Source of the DNA: Eledone cirrhosa
Taxonomy: Eukaryota
Direction: 5' to 3'
Length of the DNA stretch: 64,000 nt
Assembly (NCBI GenBank): GCA_964016885.1
Contig: OZ024740.1
Span: forward strand, 36,084,001 to 36,148,000
Positions 3,959-62,614 of this stretch are shown here, piece after piece. The notes beneath the pieces were generated by a model. The model was not told the DNA's origin. It worked only from the letters and a program-made list of their open reading frames with translations, and ran no database searches. How positions within the stretch are numbered: the stretch's first letter is position 1; each line of letters opens with the position of its first letter. The translations under genes were made by a program, and so were the position numbers.

Positions 3959-3960
<2 letters not shown>

Positions 3961-4727
3961 AAATTAAGATAGATTAAATGAATTTAATCTAAATCGAAAT
4001 TGTGGGTGTCATGCCATATCGCCTGGAAATAAGCTCAAAGATAGGTCCGAGCATTTTATAATAACTAGAAATTGATTAACATATATATATACATGAATAA
4101 TCACAGGAGATAATTTTTATAAGCGTGTAACCACGCATGGCTAGTGGGTAACAAATAAATAAAGTTGACTACAACTTCAAAAATAGATACCTTTTAATAT
4201 GATTAATCTTCCCTGTATATATTCCATTAAAGAAATATATTTCACCAATTAATCAGATGGTAAGTCACGGAAAGTGGATCTTATTGGATTATCAACAAGG
4301 AAGAATAATGTCCAGCAATCCATGCTCACACAGCGAGTTCAAATCCACATCTGGCCGCTACCACGTGTTGTGTCTACACATCACAGCAGCTTCGTTTCAG
4401 TGGCGTGAATAGGTATTCGACAACTAGAAATAGCAGTCAAATTCCCTTCAACAGAAATAGCTCTACAATTAAGGAGCCGTATTTATATATCTATATCCAA
4501 AATTAAGATAAATTAAATGAATTTAATCTAAATCGAAATTGTGGGTGTCATGCCATAACGGCGTGCGCCATACATATCGCCTGGAAATAAGCTCAAAGAT
4601 AGGTCCGAGCATTTTATAATAACTAGAAATTGATTAACATATATATATATACATGAATAATCACAGGAGATAATTTTTACAAGCGTGTAACCACGCATGG
4701 CTAGTGGGTAACAAATAAATAAAGTTG
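3959..4727. mobile_element. Non-coding 539-bp unit plus a partial tandem copy, abutting (TA)n
   Basis: The unit start (3959 onward) is repeated at 4498-4727, where the second copy has a ~19-bp insertion; the unit ends AGCTCTACAATTAAGGAGC. Confidence 0.6.
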
Positions 4728-4970
4728 TTGTTTCTGAGTATGTTATTATTGTTGATGTGTGTGTTGTTGTTATTGTTGTTTGTGTCTGTGTGTCTGTTGT
4801 TGTTGGGATGTGTGTTGTATATGTGTGTGCGTATGTTGTTACTTTTGTTTTTGTTTTTGAGGCTCCAACGTAATTTTGTAAATGATTTTTCTATTTCTGA
4901 CAAACAACTAATCATATTTACCTTATTGAATGATCTAAACTTAGAAATATTATAGAACAGTGTAGCAAGA

Positions 4971-7130
4971 AGCATAATAGAATGGATGCCCAGCAACTGG
5001 GAGAAAAATCTGCAAATGGCTTGCGTAAGCTCATGCAGCGCTCGCGTAATGGAGAGATAGCATGCTTTCCAACAGACAAGTCTGGCAGAATGTCGGTTGA
5101 CAGTCTGCCAAACTACATCCAGACAATGCAACCCCACATCACTAACACAAGAGAAGTAACACCACAAGAGCATGAGGATAGAGAAAAAGCCCTCAATGCC
5201 CATATGGTGATGTGGACAAATATAATGCAGCCCAACAAAAGGACTGCCAACAACTTCCAGGCCTGGAACAATGACGTGCCAGCGTTGTATGGGCTTCGAA
5301 AAGACCATAAAACGGGCAGTAACCCTGTCACGGGACCACCAACACGGCCAGTCTGTGGAGCTAACATTGCTAGTAACTACAGACTGTCCTACTTCCTCTC
5401 CCTGATCATACGCCCCATCATTGAAATGTCCCCAGATGTATGTGACAGCACGGAGGACCTCCTCGGCAGAATCGGCGAGAGTAACCGATCTAGGGACCTA
5501 ACAAACTGCATAATAGGTAGTATGGATGTTGTGTCCCTGTATCCATCTATTGACGTGGATTTTGCTGTCGAGAAATGCGTAGAAATGATCAATGAGAGCA
5601 ATGTTGAGTTCCGTGGGATTGATACCAGTGAGCTGGGACTCCTACTTAAACTTGCCTATAGTAATAATTACCTTGACACATACGACCTTAGCAGCCTGTG
5701 CCCTACAAGACCAGCAAGAGGCAGACCACCTACCATTACCTCAATGGCCAAGAAAACCCACAGAGATAGATGGAATGGGTGGACCAGAGCCATACGGACC
5801 CCCCAAAACCACGATGAACTAAAGAAAATGATTGCACATGCGGTGGGCGCCAGCATAAAATTAACCCTTAAGGAACATATGTTCAAATTTAATGGAAAAA
5901 AATATGCCCAAGAGGAAGTGGCAGCCATTGGGGTTAGCATTGCAGGCGACATAGCTAACTTATTCATGGTATGGTGGGACAGTAGACTTAAACTTAAACT
6001 TAAAGAACAATTAGACGACCCCTTAACCCTGATAATGTACTCCCGCTACGTTGATGATATAAACATCGTAGTTAAAACACCCCCACTAGAGAACAGTCAG
6101 GAATTAGAGAAAAACACAATGGAAAGCATCCAGCAAATAGCTAACTCCATCCCCCAGAGTATTAGAGTTACTATAGACTACCCAAGTAAACACCCCAACC
6201 ATCGATTACCTGTACTAGACACAGAGTTCTGGTTAGATACCATTAATAACAAAAAACAAATCCTCCATGACTTCCAAATATCTGATCCACCGAAACTCAG
6301 CTGTTTCGGACCATACCAAAATCAACATACTGATTGCGGATTTGGTACGGGTGATGAGAAACGTGTCCCGCATGTGCAACCCCGAAGAACTAGAGAGACA
6401 CATACAACACTTCATCCACCGTATGCAGTTCTCTGGTTACAATCAGAGAGATAAAATCAGAGTGTACAGAGGAGCCAGAACCAAATGGGAAAAAATGGTA
6501 AATAATGACACAAATGGGACCTGCCCCTTGTATAAGAGCAAATTTTGGAATAGAATAGAAAGAACTAGGAATAAGGTTAATAGAATAAACTCATGGTATG
6601 ATAGCAATAAATACTAGAGTGTAATGTTCATCAATACAACCCCTAGAGGTGAATTAGCTTACAAATTTAGAAGGGCCTTAGATAAACATAAACTCAATAT
6701 TAAGATAGTAGAAAGACCAGGTACCTCCATAAAAACACTTATTAGCAAGACATACCCTTTTCAAAGACCCCCATATTTAGATAAGAAATGTATAACCTGT
6801 AAATTAAGCCCCCATATTAACTGTAAAACTAGAAATGTAGTATATAGCATCAGATGTACTGAAGGACAATGTATTGATAAAAATATAGTGTACATAGGTG
6901 AGCCAGCTCGTAGTATAGAGGAACGGATAAATGAACACTGGCGAGACCTTCAAGATAGTAAAGAATCATCTGTTCTCTACCAACATGCTAAAATAGAACA
7001 TAAGGGTAAATTAGAGAACATAGAAATAAAAATAGAATCTACACACAGAAAAGACGCAATGTTTAGACAAATCACAGAGGCAATAAACATAAAAGAATTA
7101 CAACCAAAATTAAATAGAAAACATGATTAG
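4971..7130 (+). pseudogene. Disrupted PLE RT-GIY-YIG polyprotein
   Basis: ORF pieces 4982-6454, 6267-6617 and 6624-7130; a frameshifting deletion near 6266 removes THYAKP (present in family C); in-frame TAG at 6615-6617. Confidence 0.88.
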
Positions 7131-7358
7131 AACAGCAACATCACAACTTACAATTAAGGACAAAATGAAAACACACACGCACATAGAACAAACAACCAAC
7201 CCGTAACATGTAAATAAACAAATAAATAAACGAATATAAACACACACAGACACCCGGATGTGGCGCATGCGCAGACTGAGCACACAACGCACACACAAAA
7301 ACAAGATGGCGTAGGACAGAACAAAGGAGAGGCACAAAAACAAAGAAAAGAATCCCCA

Positions 7359-7401
7359 GTAACTGATGAGGTCACAGAATGTGTGACGAAAGAACTTTGA
7401 C
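7359..7401 (+). ncRNA. Hammerhead-like motif in the family A pseudo-LTR
   Basis: CTGATGA, stem II GTCACA/TGTGAC, GAAA; stems I and III are weak. Confidence 0.55.
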
Positions 7402-8395: not shown

Positions 8396-9148
8396 AGGAC
8401 CTGACGCCACCAATACATCCACCACACCACCAAAAACGCCGCTACCATAGACAAAGGCACCACTACCACACCCCCACCCACATGCCAACCCATCTACTGA
8501 CAATCCACTAACCTCACACCACAGCCCATCCCACTAAATAACCTTAACCACCGCCATATCTTCACATCCACCCCCACATTCTCTACACGCCAAGGCCAAC
8601 CCACCACCACCACACCACAGCCCACCTCATCCACAGACCCTCACCAACATCTCACCATCACACCCACCCCATATACACTACAGGCCAGTACATCGCCTTG
8701 ATCCTTCTCACCAATCAAAACATCTCATTTTGTTAAACTCTTGAAACTCTGACTTTACCACATAGCATGTATTTCATTTTCTTATAGCATTTTAAGAGGG
8801 TCCGTCGAGCTGCCGATTATTGAGTCGGGTAGGATCGATGTAGATCGAACCTTGAGCTGATCAGTGGCGAAACGCGCGTCACCTATCAATAAATGCAATG
8901 AAGGAATAATCAATCGTCCTTTTTATCCTTTCTATATATATTCTCTGCTCTTTACTTCTGCTACGGTTTTTATTTTGCTGATTCTACGTTCTGTACTCTT
9001 GTATATTTATTTTTTTTCTCCCTTACCCCACCCCCTTATATTTCACCTTTTCCTATGTCCCCCCCCCCCCCCATATATTCTTTTTGCCTTGCCCTTCACA
9101 TACCTATGTGTATGTGTATGTGTATGTATATTTGTGTATATATATATA

Positions 9149-9212
<64 letters not shown>

Positions 9213-10440
9213 AAAGTTTTATTTAAAATTGTTGGGTTACAACAAGTAAATATTTTATAACTGATATAAAGCACTCAACAAGTTTTGGAGTAGATATACG
9301 ATATTAAACAAATGGAAACTATATTTATAAAACCATATTTATTTCATTATACATATTTCGGGGATATCATATTAAAAATATGGCATGCCTTCTTCAGATA
9401 AAATACAATATATAAACAGTTTTATAAATAATTTTGACGTACCATAAATATTGATCAACTTTTATGTAAGAAGTTGGTTTGGTAGTGAAATGTTTATAAA
9501 TATTTAGTGTTAAGCACAGTTAAAAAGAAAGACGGAGAAAAAGAAGAGATGTATGTAAAGAAAAACAGAGAGAAATAGAGAGAGATAGGGGAGAGAGAAA
9601 TAGTGAGGAGGTGAAAAAAGAGAGGCAGCTGAGGCAACAGATGAATAATAATAATTCATCATACAAATTGAGAGATTTAGGAGGGAGGGAGTACTGTACT
9701 TATTTAGTTATAGTGTTAAGGAGACGGAGAGAAATAAAAAATGAAGAGAAAACAGAGAGAGAGAGAAAGATAGAGGTGGGGGGAAAAAGAGGTAGACCAA
9801 ATAATAATAATTATTATATATGGGGAGGTGAGAGAAATAGGAGAGAAGTAAGAGAGAAAACAAGAGAGAAACTGGAGAGGTAAAGTTAAAATAACCGATA
9901 CTTAGACTTCATCACATATAAAGAGGGAGGAGAAGAAAGAACTATATCTAGAGAGAGGGATGATAGATTTACATCTTTACGTTATGTCCTATCAATTTGA
10001 ATTATCAATTCATATGAATTGGGTATTATAATGTAAATATCAATATTCATGAATGACACATAGATATATAATGTGGGAAAAATAATGACCATATGTTTAG
10101 TTTAAAATTCTGAGGTCGATGTACCAAAAACTGAGATAAAACTTCAAAAAATACGGAAATAAATAAGTATATATGTACTTTCCGGAAAAGGAAAGAAAGA
10201 GAAAAAGAGAAGGTCATCTCAAGTTCTAGTTGATACTATATACATACCCATGATCATACGTGATCAACTCTGTAATTTCTTGTTTCACAGAAAAAAAATG
10301 TTTCCCTTGTGTTATAAAAGATTTTACTATATATATATATATACATAAAAAATATATATTAATACTCCTGCCCTCACATACATGATTATCGTTCATGTAT
10401 AGAATATTATGCATATCTGTAACATATCCAGAGCTATACC

Positions 10441-10484
<44 letters not shown>

Positions 10485-10569
10485 CACACATATATGTGTA
10501 CATGGACAGATAAAGTAAGCAGATAAAATAAAATATACTCTGTAATCATTCCATATTCATATTAATACA

Positions 10570-10825
10570 TATGGCTTTTGTACAGAGACAACCAGATATT
10601 AATATATCAGCACAGAGATATCAAAACGTTAAAAATATTTTCATCACTCCCTAGAGTATCTAGGGCCGTAAAAAACACAGTATGCACCCCATATCAACCA
10701 CAGAAATCTACCCTTCCAATTTATCTGACAATATATTGCCAAGTTCATTAGAAGCAATCAGAATCAAAAAGCAAACAAAAAACCAAAAATTATTCAACAA
10801 AACTTATTTAGCAGAAATCATTTAA
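10570..10825 (+). pseudogene. Highly decayed GIY-YIG-like endonuclease remnant
   Basis: Across frames: ETTR, YQHRDIK, PHINH, SLEAIRIKK..LFNK, resembling a PLE endonuclease C-terminus. Confidence 0.35.
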
Positions 10826-11047
10826 AAGATTTAGGAGACCCTGTTGTTCTACAGATGCTCTTATATTTAGTATAGAAGTTTATCTAGCGTAAAATTTATT
10901 CAATAGATTGGGAGCATCTACATTTTAGGGTAGTTTAATTACATCATTAGTATATATTTATGAAGAAGGTTTAAAAGAAAATGTTGAAGGAATCGAAAGA
11001 TTTATCGTCAGGTTTCATACATTAATTAAATATCTTAACTAATTATA

Positions 11048-12947
11048 CTACATTTTAAATTTATATTTATATTTAAACGTTGAGTTCAATCTATGTCTGC
11101 AGCAACTGAATAAATTGCTCCTTAAATTAAGGGAATTTTTAGATTTTAATATAAAGAATATCTCCTCCACACAGAGGTCACATGTCTCAGATGAGGAATT
11201 AAAAGGAATCCCTCTTGAGACAATATTCCAAAACATCGAATACCCAACGTTATCATGTTTAAGTTGCCAGAGTAAGCCTGATAGTGAAGTTGAAGATTTC
11301 TTGTTTGGATCTGTGAAAGAATTCTTATGATTATTGTAGCGAAGTTTAAATTCTGTCGAGGTGGAACCAACATAGTTAAAAGAATTTAAGTTAGTTTTAA
11401 CATTACAATTGTATATTATATTTTTAACTAAGCAATTGTTATTTAACGGACATTTAGATTTATTTCTACAGTTACAGTTGTTTAATTGAATATTGTTTTG
11501 GCTATTATCGGTATTTTGGCTAGGTTTTAGATTCCTATTATTTATTCTGTTAATATTTTGTGCTAAATTTTTGGTGGACGAGTAAGTTAATTTTATAGTG
11601 TGTCTATTAAAAATTGAGTGATATTTATGTGTTCTAGGGAAGCGTTTGTCAAGAGCATTAAAAAATAGTTTAGCAATGTGGGTTTTAATATTTAGTGAGA
11701 AAGTGGGGGGGGGGGGCAAACCATATTATATTTCTAGTTCTATTTCTTTTCTGGCTTTTGGAATTATTGTAATGTTTTCTATTATAGTTGTTAAAGTTGT
11801 TACCGTAATTAAAATTGTTATTATTTTGGTTAGTTTGCCTATTATTATCGATGTACTTAATTTTATCACTATATCCTGCTCTAGCTAACGCTTCATTGTA
11901 ATACTGCGCTTTTTCGTCGAAAATATTTTTATTAGATGAAATTCTTGAGATACGTTCTTGAACAGAGTTCACTATAGTATTTTTAACAGATCTGGGGTGA
12001 TTAGAGTTAAAATTGACATAATTCAAGTTTTAATTTAGTTTGTGAAATGGATAGTGAAGACATGTGTTGAGATTTAGTGTTACATCTAGGAAATTGACTA
12101 TTCTATGATTATTCTCTATTTCTATTTTTTAGATTAAGGTAATTAAAAAATTGTATAATTTTTTTTCTTTTTCTATTTAGTTCAGAGTTATTATTTTCAA
12201 TAAGTAAAAGCATGTCATCACGATATAATCCTCCGGTTACACCAGGTATTTTTCTATGCAGCGAATTAATTATAAATAGGCCCACAAGGTGATCCCATAG
12301 TAATGTCGAAATTATTATCTCTATCTGCCCTAGTCCATAGTTGGTTATTAAATTCTATCAATGTTTTCCTTGCCGATAATATAATGTGCATTTCATTGCT
12401 AGTTAGGTCTGTATGTTTGAATGCGTAATTTAGTGTCTTATTCAGTAGATTAGGGGTAATAGATGAATAGTAGTTAGCAATATCTAGTTGAATAAATTTA
12501 TTATTATTGTTATATTTAATTTCTTTAAACCACTCAATAACCTCACCAGTCTCCTTCCATAAGTTTAAGTTAGGTAAATTATGTAAGTTTTTAATTTGCT
12601 GTATCACCCTGTCTAGAATGTTTTTGCTAAGTTTACCCAGGTCAGATTTTGATGGTGCAATCAATCTGTCTGGCAAATCATTTTCAAAATTTCTTTTGTG
12701 ATCTTTCATATTGATCTTGGGTTTCCTAGGCAAGAAGGGTTGTGTTTTGTTCTCAATGTCCAACTCATGCATTATACAAGATGCCTCAACATTCATTTTT
12801 TCCAGTTCGTCCTTTATCAAAGTGGAAGGCACGCCACCTGATTCTTCTTATAAAAGAGTCTGATTTTTCTATTAATTGTTTAATAAAGTCTTTGTTCTTA
12901 GGTAGAGGTATGTCTTTTAGAGAAGAAGATATCTTAAAGAATTCCAT
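11048..12947 (-). pseudogene. Disrupted PLE RT-GIY-YIG ORF (family B)
   Basis: Starts MEFFKISSSLKDIPLP..LIEKSDSFIRRIRWRAF at 12947; KDHK, DIANYYSSI, FDITMGS, GLYRDD (12214-12225), SNHP, IIWFAPP, CNCR..CPL..C, YVGST, CDLC, CCRH; several deletions and frameshifts. Confidence 0.88.
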
Positions 12948-13530
12948 TTTTTTCAGTTATAATATAAAGCGCTCAACAGTATTGGAGCAAAAATATATGC
13001 AAAAGTTTTATTTAAAATTGTTGGGTTACAACAAGTAAATATTTTATAACTGATATAAAGCACTCAACAAGTTTTGGAGTAGATATACGATATTAAACAA
13101 AAGGAAACTATATTTATAAAACCATATTTATTTCATTATACATATTTCGGGGATACCATATTAAAAATATGGCATGCCTTCTTCAGATAAAATACAATAT
13201 ATAAACAGTTTTATAAATAATGTTGACGTACCATAAATATTGATCAACTTTTATGTAAGAAGTTGGTTTGGTAGTGAAATGTTTATAAATATTTAGTGTT
13301 AAGCACAGTTAAAAAGAAAGACGGAGAAAAAGAAGAGATGTATGTAAAGAAAAACAGAGAGAAATAGAGAGAGATAGGGGAGAGAGAAATAGTGAGGAGG
13401 TGAAAAAAGAGAGGCAGCTGAGGCAACAGATGAATAATAATAATTCATCATAAAACCAACTTCTTACATAAAAGTTGATCAATATTTATGGTACGTCAAA
13501 ATTATTTATAAAACTGTTTATATATTGTAT

Positions 13531-13586
13531 TTTATCTGAAGAAGGCATGCCATATTTTTAATATGGTATCCCCGAAATATGTATAA
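13531..13586 (+). ncRNA. Hammerhead-like motif of the family B pLTR (also on the minus strand near 9346-9402 and 13135-13191)
   Basis: CTGAAGA, long stem II ATGCCATATT/AATATGGTAT, GAAA; cleavage-site register is not fully canonical. Confidence 0.5.
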
Positions 13587-13633
13587 TGAAATAAATATGG
13601 TTTTATAAATATAGTTTCCATTTGTTTACTATG

Positions 13634-13726
<93 letters not shown>

Positions 13727-13731
13727 ATATG

Positions 13732-13764
<33 letters not shown>

Positions 13765-13819
13765 TTGTGTGTGTATATGTATGTATATGTGGATAGACCA
13801 GGTTTTTTTTTGTTTTTTT

Positions 13820-13878
13820 TTCATTCTGAAGATTGAAGGAAAACATTTTTTGCTTTTAAGAAACCACTGGTGAATGGA
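13820..13878 (+). ncRNA. Type I hammerhead motif, decayed copy (GUG at the cleavage site)
   Basis: TTCATT-CTGAAGA-stem II-GAAACCACTGGT-G-AATGGA; paralog of 16530-16587. Confidence 0.6.
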
Positions 13879-14005
13879 ATAATTGCCTTATGTTGCTTTA
13901 TTACTTTACTACTATATATATGTATATGTAAGGTTCATATGAATTATCTAAGACTGAGTTTTACACACACACACATGTATGTGTGTGTGTATGTGTATGT
14001 ATATG

Positions 14006-14038
<33 letters not shown>

Positions 14039-14204
14039 GTGTATATATATATATGTGTATATATATATGTGTGTGTGTGTGTGTGTTTGTATTTGGTTGT
14101 GCGTGTTTATGATATGTACGTATTTGTATGTGTATAATTGTACAGCTATGTATGTATATGTGTGTGTATGTATACTTATATGTGTGTGTGTGTATGTTTA
14201 TATT

Positions 14205-14245
<41 letters not shown>

Positions 14246-14660
14246 ATATAATTACATATACATATGTGTGTGTATATATTGTATACGTGTGCGTCTTTGT
14301 GCATGTATGTGTATGTATGTGTTTATGTATTTGTATATGTATATTTATGTGGGAGAGTGTGTGTATGTATTTACTATTTCGTACGTATGTATACGTGCAT
14401 TTGTGTGTATTACTTACCACGCGTGTCTGTCCAGTTAGCTGCCTTCTGTATCGGTGTCAAACATTTTTAAAATATATATATATATTTTTTTCTTATATTT
14501 ATTTGCGTGTGTGAATATGTAGAGGAGTGCATTTATGTATGTGTATGTATGTACGTGTGTATATATGTATGATTGTGTGAATGTATGTATGTATATGTGT
14601 GTGTGTATGGCTATGTTTGTGTATGTGTATGCTTGTACACACATGTATATATATATATAT

Positions 14661-15719
14661 ACTATATTATAATTTGAGATTAAACTCTCAGTCGTTTACA
14701 ATAAATCAGCTCCAAGAAAGGGGCATTTCCGAGCAGTTAAATACATTAATATATATGATAAACACAAAACGTGTTTGCATTGTAACAGACAAAGTTAGCT
14801 ATTAATTAAATAAACTAATTAAAGTGAATACAATTTGTCTGTCTCGATATAAGTCAATAAAGACAAGCTTATATTGGCAAAGGCCGTGATTCCTGGACAA
14901 ATCTAAATTTCAAAATCCAAACCCGCTCCGTAGATGAATTTGAACTCCGAAACCTAAATATGTTTCGCAACGATGGTACAAGAATTGAAAAATAAAGAGA
15001 ATCGAAATGGAATTGAAATAAAAAGAGAAATATTCAAATCTTCTGTGCTTATCAACAGGAACCCAGTAAAATTAGTACATTTCACCATCAAAAATTTTGC
15101 AGGTCTGACTACACGTGTGTCTAGCCAGGCCAAACTAGCCGTCCCGCATTCCCGGTGCTAGATATAACAGCCGTTTATGCGGGATTAAAGATCAGCTCTA
15201 CAGTTAAGGAGCAATATACTATATTATAATTTGAGATTAAACTCTCAGTCGTTTACAATAAATCAGCTCCAAGAAAGGGGCATTTCCGAGCAGTTAAATA
15301 CATTAATATATATGATAAACACAAAACGTGTTTGCATTGTAACAGACAAAGTTAGCTATTAATTAAATAAACTAATTAAAGTGAATACAATTTGTCTGTC
15401 TCGATATAAGTCAATAAAGACAAGCTTATATTGGCAAAGGCCGTGATTCCTGGACAAATCTAAATTTCAAAATCCAAACCCGCTCCGTAGATGAATTTGA
15501 ACTCCGAAACCTAAATATGTTTCGCAACGATGGTACAAGAATTGAAAAATAGGTTTCGGAGTTCAAATTCATCTACGGAGCGGGTTTGGATTTTGAAATT
15601 TAGATTTGTCCAGGAATCACGGCCTTTGCCAATATAAGCTTGTCTTTATTGACTTATATCGAGACAGACAAATTGTATTCACTTTAATTAGTTTATTTCA
15701 TTAATAGCTAACTTTGTCT
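14661..15719. mobile_element. Non-coding 557-bp unit with a partial tandem copy and an inverted copy, inside (TA)n
   Basis: Unit 14661-15217; exact partial repeat 15218-15551; 15551-15719 is the reverse complement of about 14786-14956; the unit ends AGCTCTACAGTTAAGGAGC. Confidence 0.7.
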
Positions 15720-16318: not shown

Positions 16319-16384
<66 letters not shown>

Positions 16385-16529
16385 ATGTATGCTTTTGTGT
16401 TTTTGTGTGTGTGTTTGCATGTGTAGTTTTATTTTATTTTTCCTTTCCTTCTTCCTTCTCCAGCCTCACTTTCATATAGATTGGATTTTTGTTTTTAAAA
16501 TCCAAATTCAATAAACAGAGCAGGATTTT

Positions 16530-16587
16530 TTCATTCTGAGGATTGAAAGCAAAATCTTTTGCTTTTAAGAAACCACTGGTAAATGGA
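16530..16587 (+). ncRNA. Type I hammerhead ribozyme with an intact canonical core
   Basis: Stem I TTCATT/AATGGA; CTGAGGA; stem II TTGAAAGCAAAA/TTTTGCTTTTAA; GAAA; stem III ACC/GGT; GUA triplet. Confidence 0.8.
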
Positions 16588-16789
16588 ATAATTGCCTTAT
16601 GTTGTTTATTACATAATAATATATATATATATATATATATAAACGGAAACAATGAAACAAAATTTCATTTCCAAACTTAGTACGGCTGTTACTTAAATAT
16701 GAGTATGTACACGTACATACATATATGTATACAGACGTACAGTAGTATGTATATATATATACATACATGCACACACATATATATATGTA

Positions 16790-35697: not shown

Positions 35698-35751
35698 ATG
35701 TAATTACAAACACACAGAGATACAAAAACAATTAATTGTTTCTACTTTTGA

Positions 35752-36011
35752 AACAGACAGACAGACAGACACTACCACAGTACTTTATCTAGAGAGACAG
35801 AGAGAGAGAGACACTACCACAGTACTTTATCTAGAGAGAGAGAGACACACACTACCACAGTACTTTATCTAGAGAGAGAGAGAGACAGACAGACACTGCC
35901 ACAGTACTTTATCTAGAGAGACAGAGAGAGAGACAGACACTACCACAGTACTTTATCTAGAGAGAGAGAGAGAGACAGAGAGACAGACATACACTACCAC
36001 AGTACTTTATC

Positions 36012-36050
<39 letters not shown>

Positions 36051-36450
36051 TACCACAGTACTTTAGATAGATAGAGAGAGAGAGAGACAGACACTACGAC
36101 AGTACTTTATCTAGAGGGAGACAGACAGACAGATACTACCACAGTACTTTATCTTGAGAAAGTGAGAGAGAGAGACACAGGCAGACACTACCACAGTACG
36201 TTATCTAGAGAGAGAGAGAGAGAGAGAGAGAGTTTCACTACCACCGTACTTTATCTAGAGAGAGAAGAGAGAGACAGACAATCACTACTACAGTACTTTA
36301 TCTAGAGAGAGAGAGACACAGACAGACACTACCACAGTACCTTAACTAGAGAGAGAGAGAGAGAGACACACAGACAGACACTACCACAGTACTTTATCTA
36401 GAGAAAGTGAGAGAGAGAGACACAGGCAGATACTACCACAGTACTTTATC

Positions 36451-36485
<35 letters not shown>

Positions 36486-36679
36486 ACTACCACCGTACTT
36501 TATCTAGAGAGAGAGAGAGACAGACTGACACTACCACAGTTCTTTATCTAGAGAGAGAGAGAGACAGACAGACACTACCACAGTACTTTATCTAGAGAGA
36601 AATACAGTCATACACTACCACAGTACTTTATCTAGAGAGACAGAGAGAGACAGACAGACACTACCACAGTACTTTTTCT

Positions 36680-36710
<31 letters not shown>

Positions 36711-36728
36711 TTACCACAGTACTTTATT

Positions 36729-36776
<48 letters not shown>

Positions 36777-36852
36777 CGACCACAATACTTTATCTAGAGA
36801 GAGAGAGAGAGAGAGAGACAGACATACACTACCACGGTACTTCATTTAGAGT

Positions 36853-36883
<31 letters not shown>

Positions 36884-36915
36884 TGAGAGACAAACACTAC
36901 CACAGTACTTTATCT

Positions 36916-36946
<31 letters not shown>

Positions 36947-37199
36947 GAGAGAGAGAGACAGGCAGAAACTACCACAGTACTTTATCTAGAGAGAGAGAGA
37001 GAGAGAGACACTACCACAGTACTTTATCTAGAGAGAGAGAGAGACAGACAGACACTACCACAGTACTTTATCTAGAGAGAGAGACAAACAGACACTACGA
37101 CAGTACTTTATCTGGAGAGAGAGAGAGAGAGAGACAGACAGACAATACCACAGTACATTATCTAGAGAGAGAGAGAGACACTACCGCAGTACTTTATCT

Positions 37200-37251
<52 letters not shown>

Positions 37252-37696
37252 TACCACAGTACTTTATCTAGAGAGAGAGAGAGACACACTACCACAGTAC
37301 TTTATCTAGAGAGAGAGAGAGACAGACAGACACTGCCACAGTACTTTATCTAGAGAGACAGAGAGAGAGACAGACACTACCACAGTACTTTATCTAGAGA
37401 GAGAGAGAGAGACAGAGAGACAGACATACACTACCACAGTACTTTATCTAGAGAGAGAGAGAGAGAGAGAGAGAGTTTTCACTACCACCGTACTTTATCT
37501 AGAGAGAGAAGAGAGAGACAGACAATCACTACTACAGTACTTTATCTAGAGAGAGAGAGACACAGACAGACACTACCACAGTACCTTAACTAGAGAGAGA
37601 GAGAGAGAGAGACACACAGACAGACACTACCACAGTACTTTATCTAGAGAAAGTGAGAGAGAGAGACACAGGCAGATACTACCACAGTACTTTATC

Positions 37697-37737
<41 letters not shown>

Positions 37738-37931
37738 ACTACCACCGTACTTTATCTAGAGAGAGAGAGAGACAGACTGACACTACCACAGTTCTTTATC
37801 TAGAGAGAGAGAGAGACAGACAGACACTACCACAGTACTTTATCTAGAGAGAAATACAGTCATACACTACCACAGTACTTTATCTAGAGAGACAGAGAGA
37901 GACAGACATACACTACCACAGTACTTTATCT

Positions 37932-37962
<31 letters not shown>

Positions 37963-37980
37963 TTACCACAGTACATTATT

Positions 37981-38026
<46 letters not shown>

Positions 38027-38167
38027 CGACCACAATACTTTATCTAGAGAGAGAGAGAGACAGACAGACAGACATACACTACCACGGTACTTCATTTAGA
38101 GTGAGAGAGAGAGAGGGAGAAAGAGAGAGAGAGTGAGAGACAAACACTACCACAGTACTTTATCTAA

Positions 38168-38206
<39 letters not shown>

Positions 38207-38278
38207 CTACCACAGTACTTTATCTAGAGAAGGAGAGAGAGAGACAAACAGACACTACGACAGTACTTTATCTGGAGA

Positions 38279-38313
<35 letters not shown>

Positions 38314-38355
38314 TGAGAGAGAGTGAGAGACAAACACTACCACAGTACTTTATCT

Positions 38356-38386
<31 letters not shown>

Positions 38387-38645
38387 GAGAGAGAGAGACA
38401 GGCAGAAACTACCACAGTACTTTATCTAGAGAGAGAGAGAGAGAGAGAGAGACACTACCACAGTACTTTATCTAGAGAGAGAGAGAGAGAGACAGACAGA
38501 CACTACCACAGTACTTTATCTAGAGAGAGAGACAAACAGACACTACGACAGTACTTTATCTGCAGAGAGAGAGAGAGAGAGAGACAGACAATACCACAGT
38601 ACATTATCTAGAGAGAGAGAGAGACACTACCGCAGTACTTTATCT

Positions 38646-38700
<55 letters not shown>

Positions 38701-38848
38701 CTACCACAGTATTTTATCTAGAGAAGGAGAGAGAGAGACAAACAGACACTACGACAGTACTTTATCTGGAGAGAGATAGAGAGATAGAGTGAGAGAGAGA
38801 GAGAGAGTGAGAGAGAGAGACAGACAGACACGACCACAATACTTTATC

Positions 38849-38884
<36 letters not shown>

Positions 38885-38977
38885 TACACTACCACAGTAC
38901 TTCATTTAGAGTGAGAGAGAGAGAGAGAGAGGAAAGCGAGAGAGAGTGTGAGACAAACACTACCACAGAACTTTATC

Positions 38978-39028
<51 letters not shown>

Positions 39029-39365
39029 TACCACAGTACATTATCTAGAGAGAGAGAGAGAGACAGACAGAAACGACCACAATACTTTATCTAGACAGAG
39101 AGAGAGAGTGAGAGAGAGAGAGATAGAGAGAGAGAGAGACTGACACTACCACAGTACTTTATCTATTGAGGGAGAGAGGGACACTACCACAGTACTTCAT
39201 TTAGAGTGAGAGAGAGAGACAGGCAGACACTACCACAGTACATAATCTAGAGAGTGAGACAAACTGACACTACCACAGTACTTTATCTAGAGAGAGAGAC
39301 ACTACCGCAGTACTTTATCTAAAGAGAGAGAGAGAGACAGACATACACTATCACACTACTTTATC

Positions 39366-39404
<39 letters not shown>

Positions 39405-40084
39405 ACTACCACAGTACTTTAGATAGATAGAGAGAGAGAGAGACAGAAGGACAGACACTACCACAGTACTTTATCTAAAGAGAGAGAGAGAGAGAGAGTC
39501 AGACAGACAGACACTACCACAGTACTTTATCTAGAGAGACAGAGAGAGAGAGACACTACCACAGTACTTTATCTAGAGAGAGAGAGAGACACACTACCAC
39601 AGTACTTTATCTAGAGAGAGAGAGAGAGACAGACAGACACTGCCACAGTACTTTATCTGACAGAGAGAGAGACAGACACTACAACAGTACTTTATCTAGA
39701 GAGAGAGAGAGAGAGAGACAGACATACACTACCACAGTACTTTATCTAGAGAGAGAGAGAGAGAGAGAGACACTACCACAGTACTTTAGATAGATAGAGA
39801 GAGAGAGAGACAGACACTACGACAGTACTTTATCTAGAGGGAGACAGACAGACAGATACTACCACAGTACTTTATCTAGAGAAAGTGAGAGAGAGAGACA
39901 CAGGCAGATACTACCACAGTACTTTATCTAGAGAGAGAGAGAGAGAGAGAGAGTTTCACTACCACAGTACCTTAACTAGAGAGAGAGAGAGAGGGAGACA
40001 CACAGACAGACACTACCACAGTACTTTATCTAGAGAAAGTGAGAGAGAGAGACACCAGGCAGATACTACCACAGTACTTTATCT

Positions 40085-40115
<31 letters not shown>

Positions 40116-40302
40116 TTACCACAGTACTTTATTTAGAGAGAGAGAGAGAGAGACAGACAGACACGACCACAATACTTTATCTAGAGAGAGAGAGAGAGAG
40201 AGAGACAGACATACACTACCACGGTACTTCATTTAGAGTGAGAGAGAGAGAGAGAGAAAGATAGAGAGAGTGAGAGACAAACACTACCACAGTACTTTAT
40301 CT

Positions 40303-40333
<31 letters not shown>

Positions 40334-40518
40334 GAGAGAGAGAGAGAGAGACAGGCAGAAACTACCACAGTACTTTATCTAGAGAGAGAGAGAGAGAGAG
40401 ACACTACCACAGTACTTTATCTAGAGAGAGAGAGAGAGAGACAGACAGACACTACACACTACCACAGTACTTTATCTAGAGAGAGAGACAAACAGACACT
40501 ACGACAGTACTTTATCTG

Positions 40519-40550
<32 letters not shown>

Positions 40551-40606
40551 ATACACAGTACATTATCTAGAGAGAGAGAGAGACACTACCGCAGTACTTT
40601 ATCTAA

Positions 40607-40673
<67 letters not shown>

Positions 40674-40707
40674 CAAACAGACACTACGACATTACTTTAT
40701 CTGGAGA

Positions 40708-40746
<39 letters not shown>

Positions 40747-40788
40747 TGAGAGAGAGAGACAGAACAGACACGACCACAATACTTTATC

Positions 40789-40824
<36 letters not shown>

Positions 40825-40854
40825 CATACACTACCACAGTACTTCATTTAGAGT

Positions 40855-40891
<37 letters not shown>

Positions 40892-40922
40892 TGTGAGACA
40901 AACACTACACAGAACTTTATCT

Positions 40923-40959
<37 letters not shown>

Positions 40960-41242
40960 CACTACCACAGTAAATTATCTAGAGAGAGAGAGAGAGACAG
41001 ACAGAAACGACCACAATACTTTATCTAGAGAGAGAGAGAGAGTGAGAGAGAGAGAGATAGAGAGAGAGAGAGACTGACACTACCACAGTACTTTATCTAG
41101 AGAGAGAGAGAGAGACAGACAGACACTGCCTACAGTACTTTATCTAGAGAGACAGAGAGAGAGACAGACACTACAAACAGTACTTTATCTAGAGAGAGAG
41201 AGAAAGAGAGAGGACAGACATACACTACCACAGTACTTTATC

Positions 41243-41287
<45 letters not shown>

Positions 41288-41782
41288 TACCACAGTACTT
41301 TAGATAGATAGAGAGAGAGAGAGACAGACACTACGACATTACTTTATCTAGAGGAGACAGACGGGACAGATACTACCACAGTACTTTATCTAGAGAAAGT
41401 GAGAGAGAGAGACACAGGCAGATACTACCACAGTACTTTATCTAGAGAGAGAGAGAGAGAGAGAGAGTTTCACTACCACAGTACCTTAACTAGAGAGAGA
41501 GAGGGAGACACACAGACAGACCCTACCACAGTACTTTATCTAGAGAAAGTGAGAGTGAGAGACACAGGCAGATACTACCACAGTACATTATCTAGAGAGA
41601 GAGAGAGAGACAGACTGACACTACCACATTTCTTTATCTAGAGAGAGAGAGAGAGAGACAGACAGACACTACCACAGTACTTTTATCTAGAGAGAAATAC
41701 AGTCATACACTACCACAGTACTTTATCTAGAGAGACAGAGACAGACAGACTGACATTACCACAGTACTTTATTTAGAGAGAG

Positions 41783-41832
<50 letters not shown>

Positions 41833-41851
41833 CGACCACAATACTTTATCT

Positions 41852-41882
<31 letters not shown>

Positions 41883-41980
41883 TACAACACCACGGTACTT
41901 CATTTAGAGTGAGAGAGAGAGAGAGAAAGAGAGAGAGAGTGAGAGACAAACACTACCACAGTACTTTATCTAGAGAGAGA

Positions 41981-42011
<31 letters not shown>

Positions 42012-42103
42012 TGTGAGAGAGAGAGAGAGAGACAGGCAGAAACTACCACAGTACTTTATCTAGAGAGAGAGAGAGAGGGAGACACTACCACAGTACATTA
42101 TCT

Positions 42104-42136
<33 letters not shown>

Positions 42137-42375
42137 CTACCACAGTACTTTATCTAGAGAGAGAGAGAGAGAGTGGACACTACCACAGTACTTTATCTAG
42201 AGAGAGAGAGAGAGAGACAGACAGGACACTACCACAGTACTTTATCTAGAGAGAGAGACAAACAGACACTACGACAGTACTTTATCTGGAGAGAGAGAGA
42301 GAGATGAGACAGACAGACAATACCACAGTACATTATCTAGAGAGAGAGAGAGGACACTACCGCAGTACTTTATCT

Positions 42376-42434
<59 letters not shown>

Positions 42435-42506
42435 CTACCACAGTACTTTATCTAGAGAAGGAGAGAGAGAGACAAACAGACACTACGACATTACTTTATC
42501 TGGAGA

Positions 42507-42556
<50 letters not shown>

Positions 42557-42662
42557 GAGAGAGAGACAGACAGACACGACCACAATACTTTATCTAGAGA
42601 GAGAGAGAGAGAGAGAGAGTGAGACAGACATACACTACCACAGTACTTCATTAGAGTGAGGA

Positions 42663-42696
<34 letters not shown>

Positions 42697-43108
42697 TGTG
42701 AGACAAACACTACCACAGAACTTTATCTAGAGAGAGAGAAAGAAGAGAGAGATGAGAGAGAGAGAGACACTACCACAGTACATTATCTAGAGAGAGAGAG
42801 AGAGACAGACAGAAACGATCACAATACTTTATCTAGAGAGAGAGAGAGAGTGAGAGAGAAGAGATAGAGAGAGAGAGAGACTGACACTACCACAGTACTT
42901 TATCTATTGAGGGAGAGAGGGACACTACCACAGTACTTCATTTAGAGTGAGAGAGAGAGACAGGCAGACACTACCACAGTACATAATCTAGAGAGTGAGA
43001 CAAACTGACACTACCACAGTACTTTATCTAGAGAGAGAGAGACACTACCGCAGTACTTTATCTAAAGAGAGAGAGAGAGACAGACAGACACTATCACACT
43101 ACTTTATC

Positions 43109-43178
<70 letters not shown>

Positions 43179-43654
43179 ACTACCACAGTACTTTAGATAG
43201 ATAGAGAGAGAGAGAGACAGAAGGACAGACACTACCACAGTACTTTATCTCGAGAGACAGAGAGAGAGAGACACTACCACAGTACTTTATCTAGAGAGAG
43301 AGAGAGAGACACACTACCACAGTACTTTATCTAGAGAGAGAGAGAGAGACCGACAGACACTGCCACAGTACTTTATCTAGAGAGACAGAGAGAGAGACAG
43401 ACACTACAACAGTACTTTATTAGAGAGAGTGAGAGAGAGAGAGAGACAGACATACACTACCACAGTACTTTATCTAGAGAGAGAGAGAGAGAGAGACACT
43501 ACCACAGTACTTAATAGATAGAGAGAGAGAGAGAGACAGACACTACGACAGTACTTTATCTAGAGGGAGACAGACAGACAGATACTACCACAGTACTTTA
43601 TCTAGAGAAAGTGAGAGAGACAGACACAGGCAGATACTACCACAGTACTTTATC

Positions 43655-43689
<35 letters not shown>

Positions 43690-43999
43690 ACTACCACAGT
43701 ACCTTAACTAGAGAGAGAGAGAGAGGGAGACACACAGACAGACACTACCACAGTACTTTATCTAGAGAAAGTGAGAGAGAGAGATACAGGTCAGATACTA
43801 CCACAGTACTTTATCTAGAGAGAGAGTGAGAGAGACAGACTGACACTACCACAGTTCTTTATCTAGAGAGAGAGAGAGAGACAGACAGACACTACCACAG
43901 TACTTTATCTAGAGAGAATACAGTCATTACACTACCACAGTACTTTATCTAGAGAGACAGAGACAGACAGACTGACATTACCACAGTACTTTATTTATT

Positions 44000-44036
<37 letters not shown>

Positions 44037-47300: not shown

Positions 47301-48665
47301 CTGGTGGATAGCTATGTCCAGAGCTAAATATATTAGAAAGATCGAGTATCGAAAAATCGGCGCACGAGTTAACGAAAAACGAAATCCGATATGAGCGGCA
47401 GAGGGCTCAATAATTCAGATGAATCAGAGCTATAACTATCGTTAAAATACCGTCACATATAGAACAAGTCTACAATCAACCATACGATTTAAAATCGATA
47501 AAGGAAGATTCGGGCCAAACAGATAAAAAATATCAATAAAACAATACGTCAATAATTTAAATGAATGTAAAATCATACCCGGACCCACTAGAAAGGTGTT
47601 AAATCTAGCTTCATGGGTTTCTGTAAATCCTTAGACAGTACTCTATCAGCTCACATATAAATATAAAAGCCTACTAGAATAAGTGGAATGGAGTTTACGT
47701 TGTCAACGAGTTTTATCCTGGCGGCAAAGGAGTCAACTAGCGGTGAAAAACGCACATGGCATTAGACAAGGGAGATGACCCCTATATCCGCGAAAATAAT
47801 TCGAGTGAATGTGGAAATACACATATCGAATTAGAGTGCTCAATAGACATGTTAAAATAAAACAAAAGCTATTCATCACTCAATAGAATCGACAAAATAT
47901 GAGCAATAAAATTAACTGGTGGATAGCTATGTCCAGAGCTAAATATATTAGAAAGATCGAGTATCGAAAAATCGGCGCACGAGTTAACGAAAAACGAAAT
48001 CCGATATGAGCGGCAGAGGGCTCAATAATTCAGATGAATCAGAGCTATAACTATCGTTAAAATACCGTCACATATAGAACAAGTCTACAATCAACCATAC
48101 GATTTAAAATCGATAAAGGAAGATTCGGGCCAAACAGATAAAAAATATCAATAAAACAATACGTCATAATTTAAATGAATGTAAAATCATACCCGGACCC
48201 ACTAGAAAGGTGTTAAATCTAGCTTCATGGGTTTCTGTAAATCCTTAGACAGTACTCTATCAGCTCACATATAAATATAAAAGCCTACTAGAATAAGTGG
48301 AATGGAGTTTACGTTGTCAACGAGTTTTATCCTGGCGGCAAAGGAGTCAACTAGCGGTGAAAAACGCACATGGCATTAGACAAGGGAGATGACCCCTATA
48401 TCCGCGAAAATAATTCGAGTGAATGTGGAAATACACATATCGAATTAGAGTGCTCAATAGACATGTTAAAATAAAACAAAAGCTATTCATCACTCAATAG
48501 AATCGACAAAATATGAGCAATAAAATTAACTGGTGGATAGCTATGTCCAGAGCTAAATATATTAGAAAGATCGAGTATCGAAAAATCGGCGCACGAGTTA
48601 ACGAAAAACGAAATCCGATATGAGCGGCAGAGGGCTCAATAATTCAGATGAATCAGAGCTATAAC

Positions 48666-48668
<3 letters not shown>
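44389..48668. repeat. Tandem array of about 7 near-identical 615-bp non-coding units
   Basis: AAGTCTACAATCAACC at 44391, 45006, 45621, 46236, 46851, 47466 and 48081; only a 1-nt deletion noticed, in the last unit. Confidence 0.97.

Positions 48669-52572
<3,904 letters not shown>

Positions 52573-53811: not shown

Positions 53812-62614
<8,803 letters not shown>

What the first reader, a model, noticed from the sequence alone, without database searches (positions are those of the whole stretch)
14661..15719. Candidate new class of PLE-mobilised non-coding elements without a canonical hammerhead
Seen: a 557-bp unit, an exact partial tandem copy and an inverted terminal piece, all inside (TA)n. 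This matches the geometry of the coding PLE at 9205-13628, but the unit has no ORF and no CUGANGA/GAAA core that I could find. The 539-bp unit at 3959-4727 differs over most of its length, yet shares three ordered blocks at its right end: CTA(C)CACGTGT(TGT)GTCTA, CTAGAWATARCAGYC and AGCTCTACARTTAAGGAGC. Established: PLEs produce partial-tandem and inverted termini, and non-autonomous retrozymes use self-cleaving RNAs. Inference: these are non-autonomous PLE parasites, and the conserved blocks may be an unrecognised structured RNA (ribozyme or RT-recognition signal) or an internal promoter.
Basis: partly seen in the sequence, partly recalled or inferred. Interest (0 to 1): 0.75.

Follow-up and report, generated by a model that had tools for sequence, protein, structure and literature searches.

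The report
Hammerhead retrozymes hijacking Hydra retrotransposons
These two short non-coding repeats, each with hundreds of copies, carry a predicted self-cutting hammerhead RNA with an already published swap in its core, plus two small hairpins shared with Hydra-type Penelope jumping genes, whose enzyme likely copies them into TA repeats starting just before each hairpin.

Summary
The geometry is real. Units A (557 bp) and B (539 bp here) are closed, ORF-less, dispersed families read on the window's minus strand. The 'no hammerhead' premise fails: each unit holds a predicted type I hammerhead with the known U3-A8 core (UUGAnAA) and long helices. A sister subfamily of B has the canonical CUGAAGA at the same place. 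Block 1 is a bulged hairpin (GCUC..UN-GAGC) that occurs twice per unit, and also in the coding element at 9204-13632 and most Hydra-clade Penelope-like elements examined. Insertion ends sit just 5' of either hairpin. Of 75 two-armed insertions with both ends at fixed sites, 74 pair one end of each type. Truncated 5' ends cluster just behind the predicted cleavage site. One A-to-G hyper-edited copy fixes the RNA strand and argues against two rounds on one monomer circle. Verdict: Hydra-mobilised, retrozyme-like parasites, a new variant of a known kind. The hairpins likely recruit the reverse transcriptase (untested). This scan reported the twin hairpins and similar U3-A8 retrozyme families before, on other DNA of this genome.

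The parts
14661..15217 (-). Unit A, one full 557-nt period (sense strand = minus)
   Evidence: family copies 94-100% identical among 40 scored of 1567 first-look candidates
15218..15551 (-). 5'-truncated upstream tandem copy of unit A (holds GAAA and cleavage site but not the core heptamer)
   Evidence: 0 mismatches in 334 nt
15552..15719 (+). Inverted arm of the insertion (= unit 14787-14954), ending about 50 nt short of the usual second end
15195..15212 (-).
14709..14734 (-). Hairpin 2 of A (second copy 15266-15291); end 2 lies 6-9 nt 5' of it
14661..14737 (-). 77-nt 'tail' between end 2 and end 1, present on one arm only
14888..15063 (-). Predicted type I hammerhead of A: stem I 15063-15056/14895-14888, core UUGAUAA 15055-15049, GAAA 14966-14963, long helix III, predicted cut after GUC at 14896
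15153..15173 (-). Block 2: small hairpin, loop UUUC in the family majority (UAUC in this copy); role unknown
15112..15117 (.). Block 3 core CACGTG (E-box-like, label recalled); role unknown
3959..4727 (-). Family B insertion: unit 3959-4497 plus partial copy 4498-4727; hairpin 1 4477-4460, hairpin 2 4052-4033 (copy 4610-4591), block-2 hairpin 4439-4418, CACGTG 4367-4362
4207..4304 (-). Predicted type I hammerhead of B: core UUGAUAA 4295-4289, U.U first pair of stem II, GAAA 4243-4240, 9-bp stem III, predicted cut after AUA at 4216
   Evidence: canonical-core subfamily
9204..13632 (-). Broken coding Hydra-clade PLE (family P): hairpin 1 12988-12971, hairpin 2 13080-13062 and 9291-9273, canonical hammerhead core CUGAAGA at 13186 and 9397

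Best explanation
Units A and B are ORF-less repeats that carry a predicted U3-A8 hammerhead and two bulged hairpins shared with Hydra-clade Penelope-like elements, and they are likely copied into (TA)n by a Hydra reverse transcriptase-endonuclease that likely starts just 5' of each hairpin. Inferred steps: (1) read-through transcription of a tandem copy gives a minus-strand RNA that crosses the unit junction; (2) the hammerhead cuts some transcripts and so sets 5' ends; (3) the borrowed protein, perhaps as a dimer, binds hairpin 1 and hairpin 2 and nicks both strands of a TA repeat; (4) each nick primes at a UA-rich patch inside the RNA, one at end 1 and the other at end 2; (5) the two cDNAs are joined head to head, giving a tandem arm with the tail and an inverted arm without it.
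For: Shown: two fixed 3' ends per family, each 1-20 nt 5' of a hairpin, in A, B and coding P and in a few copies of coding Q. In 165 merged loci, two-armed insertions with both ends at fixed sites are end1+end2 in 39 of 39 (A) and 35 of 36 (B); end2+end2 never occurs. TATATA lies within 30 nt outside 226 of 238 fixed ends. Hairpin pattern: 1600 genome matches, 0 for the reversed control. Of 78 metagenome Hydra-like loci, 35 had enough upstream DNA; 23 had two or more matches (21 with two separate hairpins) against 0.6 in shuffles. In 46 distinct hairpins the inner stem pairs only with a 2-nt bulge: 46/46 (C-G 34, U-A 12), 28/41, 19/20. Hammerhead: GAAA in 57/57 A and 74/78 B segments; N7 varies in B (UUGAUAA 35, UUGACAA 20, UUGAAAA 12) while fixed core sites deviate 2.7%; an A subfamily changes U.U to G-C in stem III (9 of 57); subfamily B' has the C3-G8 core (144 exact genome matches; 29 of 29 scored). 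5' ends: B 11 in the 10 nt after the predicted cut vs 2 before; A 13 vs 2 in 25 nt. RNA strand: L041 has 29/164 A>G vs 2/205 T>C; two A>G are shared by both of its arms and by none of 159 other segments. From papers: internal RT initiation at two sites defines the PLE tail, and both strands are nicked and extended (PMC11167929); U3-A8 is natural and active in vitro, U10.1-U11.1 natural (PMC3088659).
Against: No activity is shown. The hammerhead fold is not the predicted minimum: 2.6 kcal/mol above it in A (stem II pair probability 0) and 6.0 in B; 10 of 57 A segments carry a U4C change. A and B share no detectable sequence with P beyond the hairpin, so the partner family is not identified; their hairpins are followed by U, not the AC/GC of 50 strict metagenome hairpins. 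26 of 264 outward 3' ends lie at neither site, and the window's own inverted arm is one of them. The 5'-end peaks lie 4-22 nt behind the cut and near palindromes that could attract junctions; in B the excess fades at 25-40 nt windows. The permutation test ignores relatedness, and its first pair partly reflects the two hairpin classes. G-U vs A-C counts (4 vs 2) do not separate RNA from single-stranded DNA. In the anole Poseidon element the start site is not homologous to the target and the hammerhead is dispensable in vitro. Part of the locus sample was chosen for full-length matches. Only one hyper-edited insertion was found.
Confidence: 0.72

Rival explanations
1. Classical retrozyme route: the hammerhead makes a 557-nt monomer circle and the RT rolls round it more than once, giving the partial tandem copy.
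For: One predicted hammerhead per unit; stable circular fold on the sense strand (z -3.9 for A, -7.2 for B, 25 shuffles each); exact partial copy in the window; up to four full units in one insertion; circRNAs shown for other animal retrozymes (PMC7229834). A circle would place hairpin 1 behind end 1 without read-through.
Against: In L041 the two passes over the same 76 A sites differ: 25 A>G in the upstream copy, 0 in the downstream copy. The edited stretch is almost exactly one cut-to-cut monomer. This fits a longer linear or multimeric template, or a jump between two molecules, not two rounds on one monomer. One insertion only. The excess of 5' ends behind the cut site also points to linear templates.
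Confidence: 0.25
2. The hairpins act as DNA (cruciform or single-strand) sites for the GIY-YIG endonuclease that trims an integration intermediate, not as RNA signals for the RT.
For: The outer stem GCTC/GAGC hardly varies, as for a sequence-read site; the Drosophila Penelope tail was needed for endonuclease recognition of plasmid DNA (as cited in PMC11167929); Craig et al. ascribed tails to EN-mediated resolution.
Against: The inner stem covaries with a fixed one-sided 2-nt bulge; hairpin 2 of A and B begins with a G-U pair on the RNA strand; for Poseidon the two ends were mapped to RT start sites in RNA.
Confidence: 0.12
3. The blocks form a new self-cleaving ribozyme that cuts just 5' of the hairpin (hatchet- or HDV-like) and so makes the 3' ends.
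For: All six fixed ends in A, B and P lie just 5' of a hairpin.
Against: The hairpin is only 16-28 nt in the metagenome loci and has no shared partner elements in coding copies; the distance to the end varies from 1 to 20 nt; a hammerhead is already present; Rfam gave no ribozyme match.
Confidence: 0.05
4. The units are ordinary truncated pLTRs of a coding PLE, or DNA rolling-circle (Helentron-type) elements.
For: 22 of 165 loci have Hydra ORF pieces in the flanks; one B' locus (L338, 1 of 30) has one about 800 nt upstream in the same sense. Tandem multimers and AT-rich targets are also seen in Helentron derivatives (recalled).
Against: Head-to-tail full periods of 557/559 nt with no ORF (two or more full units in 14 of 79 A and 8 of 92 B insertions); none of the 22 ORF pieces lies within 1000 nt upstream in the same sense; variable 5' truncation, inversion and one-stranded A>G editing point to an RNA intermediate.
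Confidence: 0.04

Closest known systems
Animal non-LTR retrozymes (Cervera and de la Pena 2020, PMC7229834, passages seen; Li, Clavereau and Pollet 2026, bioRxiv 10.64898/2026.07.22.740005, part 1 of 5 and passages seen)
   Same: ORF-less, low-GC repeat with one type I hammerhead per unit, in monomers and short tandems; proposed dependence on PLEs.
   Different: Unit 557-559 nt vs 150-450 bp; U3-A8 core with very long helices II/III; mostly dispersed two-armed insertions in (TA)n with two fixed ends; carries the Hydra twin hairpins. Circular RNA not shown here and contradicted for one insertion.
Hydra clade of Penelope-like elements (Craig et al. 2021, PMC8557442; sections 3 and 11, passages, supplement parts 52-53 and table rows seen)
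   Same: (TA)n target, partial tandem plus inverted arm, one-sided tail, hammerhead upstream of the ends. The same hairpins can be read by eye in the published Hydra-2_Amil, Hydra-1_Ajap and Hydra-2_Ajap consensus sequences (a looser form in Hydra-1_Crog).
   Different: A and B have no ORF; the hammerhead lies about 160 nt before end 2 instead of about 50; the paper's main text does not mention hairpins or stem-loops; it reports non-autonomous partners only for Chlamys.
Poseidon element PAc of Anolis (Frangieh et al. 2024, PMC11167929; parts 1-2 of 4 read)
   Same: Two internal RT start sites whose spacing is the tail; both target strands nicked and extended; protein predicted to be a dimer.
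   Different: PAc starts in one AC-rich stem-loop inside the ORF with no homology to the target; here each start has its own conserved hairpin 3' of it and a TA microhomology, and the two starts are split one per arm.
U3-A8 hammerheads of Cercyon PLEs and prokaryotic sequences (PMC4209133, passages; PMC3088659, section 8 and passages)
   Same: Same compensated core swap; U.U at the base of stem II as in B.
   Different: Those PLE motifs are minimal and thought to work as dimers; A and B have long, stable helices III that could fold as monomers.

Membership tests
Type I hammerhead ribozyme | Core C3UGAnG8A (canonical) | tested here: not met
   A and B read UUGAnAA; met only in subfamily B'
Type I hammerhead ribozyme | Compensated 3-8 pair (U3-A8 accepted variant) | tested here: met
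   A: TTGATAA 41 and TCGATAA 10 of 57; B: 67 of 78 UUGAnAA; variant documented in PMC3088659, PMC4209133
Type I hammerhead ribozyme | GAAA, NUH triplet and stems I-III in type I order | tested here: met
   stem II is weak (3 bp in A; U.U then 4-5 bp in B)
Type I hammerhead ribozyme | Tertiary contact between loops 1 and 2 | not tested
   not examined
Type I hammerhead ribozyme | Self-cleavage | not testable with these tools
   indirect only: 5' ends cluster behind the predicted site
Animal non-LTR retrozyme | No ORF, no LTR/PBS/PPT, GC below 45% | tested here: met
   (GC 0.35 and 0.34); PBS/PPT not searched separately
Animal non-LTR retrozyme | Unit of 150-450 bp | tested here: not met
   557 and 559 nt
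Animal non-LTR retrozyme | [quoted passage not shown] | tested here: inconclusive
   two or more full units in 14 of 79 A and 8 of 92 B insertions (some on opposite arms); the window copies hold one complete ribozyme each
Animal non-LTR retrozyme | Expressed as circular RNA | not testable with these tools
   no RNA run listed; L041 argues against a monomer circle as template of that insertion
Hydra-clade PLE (for coding P and Q, the candidate helpers) | RWK and DKT motifs, CxCX5C linker, C-terminal endonuclease without CCHH | tested here: met
   read in ORFs of L112 (RWR, DKT, CNCRNKSKC) and L235 (RWK, DKT, CSCRKPDEC) against section 11; Pfam gave no hit
Hydra-clade PLE (for coding P and Q, the candidate helpers) | Canonical hammerhead and (TA)n insertion | tested here: met
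   P CUGAAGA..GAAA, Q CUGAGGA..GAAA; ends
Hydra-clade PLE (for coding P and Q, the candidate helpers) | Placement in an RT tree with published Hydra families | not tested
pLTR of a coding PLE | ORF directly upstream in the same sense | tested here: not met
   0 of 165 A/B loci (only two Hydra proteins used as queries)
Hatchet ribozyme | Match to RF02678 | tested here: inconclusive
   0 in window and genome, but the control genomes gave none either
Known SINE or Helentron entries | Match to a Dfam/Repbase entry | not testable with these tools
   libraries not held; ARAGORN not run

The most novel reading that the evidence does not exclude
Hydra-clade Penelope-like elements use a duplicated, bulged RNA hairpin as a two-site landing pad: two RT-endonuclease subunits each bind one hairpin of the same RNA and prime opposite target strands, and units A and B are minimal parasites that kept only this pad plus a slow U3-A8 hammerhead, copied from multimeric linear RNA rather than a monomer circle. 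That would give the first defined cis-signal for a telomerase-related retrotransposon RT with a microsatellite target and a 560-nt natural substrate for it.
Probability: 0.45. Interest if true: 0.72.

Novelty: new variant of a known kind. Interest (0 to 1): 0.52.

Why it matters
How Penelope-like elements pick their RNA, why their tail sits on one end only, and how animal retrozymes get copied are open questions. These families make them testable: a 560-nt non-coding substrate, a young helper family with intact 714-aa ORFs in the same genome, two mapped start sites, a conserved hairpin to mutate, and natural C3-G8 and U3-A8 versions of one ribozyme. The elements themselves are of a known kind, and the claim of a ribozyme-free new class does not hold.

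Tried and rejected
Rfam on the window: 0 at gathering score; E-value scans gave only miRNA models on the inverted repeat and chance hits; Rfam's hammerhead models miss these ribozymes, probably because of the long insertions (inference). Hatchet resemblance (recalled): no match, control uninformative. Scrambled hammerhead (type SGC; PMC10085705, outline and section 13 seen): not needed, a type I order fits. I first took CTGATTA at 4256 (B), CTGTTGA at 15058 (A) and CTGACGA at 11011 (P) for degenerate cores; the real ones are 4295, 15055 and 13186/9397. One new ribozyme from the three blocks: A vs B after hairpin 1 aligns no better than shuffles (z 1.1, 46 of 300); a B profile scores A above 999 and 1000 of 1000 shuffles, mostly through block 2; block 2 shows only one-sided changes, 0 two-sided, not above shuffles; no consensus structure around CACGTG. 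First metagenome scan with one protein: nothing. Expression: no RNA holder listed; three contig runs of one sample showed no joints or ends; neither bears on expression. A pattern for more edited copies found only L041. Print searches that found no description of the Hydra hairpins or of these families: (open-access library only; Repbase/Dfam entries, subscription papers and the bioRxiv supplements of Li et al. were not seen). Dropped before counts: L002, L032, L253, L254, L288 (near-identical duplicate of the window region), overlapping loci merged, L138 and L198 as near-duplicates, 13 of 63 hairpin matches failing the strict sequence rule.

Full report
Observation. The unit 14661-15217, the exact 334-nt tandem copy and the inverted piece are as described. 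The window lies in a 3.0-Gb animal genome; the nearest named proteins to its coding PLE come from Argonauta, so a cephalopod is likely (inference). A and B are dispersed families: 1567 and 2573 first-look candidates, 40 scored each; exact internal patterns occur 375 and 476 times, with 0 for reversed controls. In the coding element at 9204-13632 the partial copy and the inverted piece lie at the 5' side of a minus-strand ORF, so A and B read on the minus strand and the shared blocks open the unit.

Not a pLTR. The units close head to tail with a period of 557 (A) or about 559 nt (B), hold no ATG frame over 62 aa and match no PLE protein. In 165 merged loci, 22 have Hydra ORF pieces nearby, none within 1000 nt upstream in the same sense. 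One of 30 B' loci has one about 800 nt upstream.

The hairpin. A fuzzy search for block 1 found three sites in the window: A, B and the start of the coding element's body. It is a hairpin GCUC/GAGC with a two-base bulge on the 3' side and a further stem. Each family has a second one 60-100 nt before its 3' end. The coding element and a second, younger family Q with many intact 714-aa frames meet the sequence criteria of the Hydra clade. Of 78 related metagenome loci, 35 had the ORF start and enough upstream DNA; 23 gave two or more hairpin matches (21 with two separate hairpins), 9 one and 3 none, against 0.6, 4.7 and 29.7 in shuffles. In 46 distinct hairpins chosen by sequence alone, the inner pairs form only with a bulge of two: 46/46, 28/41, 19/20, permutation p 0.0002 each; other bulge sizes gave nothing (relatedness not controlled). 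The hairpins are visible in published Hydra consensus sequences but the paper's text does not mention them. The two other coding PLE families in the window have canonical hammerhead cores and no such hairpin at their ends.

The ends. Copies end at two fixed places, each in a TA microhomology 1-20 nt 5' of a hairpin. Among two-armed insertions with both ends at fixed sites, 39 of 39 in A and 35 of 36 in B combine one end 1 with one end 2; the exception (L048) has a doubtful second end; end 2 twice was never seen. Nineteen further two-armed insertions have at least one end elsewhere, and 26 of 264 outward ends lie at neither site. This matches the two internal start sites shown in vitro for a Poseidon element, whose spacing is the tail (PMC11167929), and adds that the two sites are split one per arm.

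The hammerhead. There is no CUGAnGA in A or B, but each has one type I hammerhead with UUGAUAA: in A with 82 and 67 nt in helices II and III and a GUC site at 14896, in B with a U.U first pair, a 9-bp stem III and an AUA site at 4216; 0 of 400 shuffles gave a hit (descriptor written after the fact). Across copies, position 7 varies in B while the fixed core does not, stems are kept by one-sided changes, and an A subfamily turns a U.U into G-C in stem III. Subfamily B' has CUGAAGA at the same place (144 exact matches; 29 scored), so both sides of the 3-8 pair change together. U3-A8 is known from Cercyon PLEs (PMC4209133) and described as active in vitro (PMC3088659). Against activity: the fold is 2.6 and 6.0 kcal/mol above the predicted minimum, and 10 of 57 A segments carry U4C. 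For activity in vivo: truncated 5' ends cluster behind the predicted cut, 11 vs 2 in 10 nt in B and 13 vs 2 in 25 nt in A (of 134 and 111 ends), though palindromes nearby may contribute. I recognised the variant core after seeing an earlier scan note on a U3-A8 hammerhead.

One edited copy. L041 (family B) has 29 of 164 A>G against 2 of 205 T>C on the sense strand, the mark of an edited RNA template (inference; lead). The edited stretch runs from about 8 nt behind one predicted cut site to the next. At 76 shared A sites the upstream copy has 25 changes and the downstream copy none, which does not fit two rounds on one monomer circle. Two A>G changes are shared by both arms and by none of 159 other segments, as expected if both arms came from one RNA, or from a parent with private variants. 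It is a single case.

Blocks 2 and 3. Block 2 is a small hairpin with a UUUC/UUUA loop in both families, with one-sided changes only. Of block 3 only CACGTG is family-wide; it may be a promoter element (inference, untested). A and B are colinear from hairpin 1 to the hammerhead core but barely alignable, so an old common origin is possible, not shown.

Verdict. Non-autonomous, retrozyme-like parasites of Hydra-clade PLEs. They work like animal non-LTR retrozymes but exceed the described size and are not shown to form circles, so I file them as a variant. The helper family, the role of the hairpins and cleavage are inferred. Earlier notes of this scan reported the twin hairpins and other U3-A8 families with two fixed ends in this genome; no note matched A or B by sequence. 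I had found the hairpins and ends before reading those notes.

Noticed in passing
window 44390-48700 (-): A 615-bp tandem array of about seven units, each with the same bulged hairpin (e.g. 48659, 44970), a second long-looped one and a hammerhead-like CTGATAGA..GAAAC with an extra base in the core: probably a third non-coding Hydra parasite.
   Followed up: partly
window 63598 (-): Another hairpin of the same build; its element was not examined.
   Followed up: no
G000:C1:35.17-35.18 Mb (L002, L032, L075, L092): The window's A, B and P insertions recur about 0.9 Mb away, inverted and 99-100% identical: a recent segmental duplication or an assembly duplicate.
   Followed up: no
window 13630-14374, 16319-16621, 8941-9209: Pieces of Hydra family Q (76-91% identical to L236) flank unit A and element P; A sits in or beside the TA/TG-rich 3' region of an older Q-like copy.
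   Followed up: partly
L235-L250: Young Hydra family Q: all 16 fetched copies have an open 714-718-aa frame; its hairpin 1 carries a long inserted loop.
   Followed up: partly
window 4934-7400, 50001-51500, 59515-61000: Other coding PLEs (clade not tested) with canonical cores at 7363 and 51232 and no bulged hairpin at their ends.
   Followed up: partly
L088, L324, L326 and other B' copies: A perfect ATTTGCAT (octamer motif, label recalled) lies about 20 nt behind CACGTG in subfamily B' and is degenerate in B and A; possible promoter elements.
   Followed up: no
family A copies such as L007, L017, L022, L029, L030: A subfamily with core UCGAUAA (U4C on top of U3-A8), 10 of 57 segments, still spreading.
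   Followed up: no
window 12813-12815 (-): The window's P copy lacks about 306 nt present in the other scored copies.
   Followed up: no
L116: A Q copy is inserted inside a P copy.
   Followed up: no
window 55814-57751 (-); 35700-44000: A 645-aa LINE-type RT frame; and a long AG-rich satellite with the unit core ACTACCACAGTACTTTATCT.
   Followed up: no
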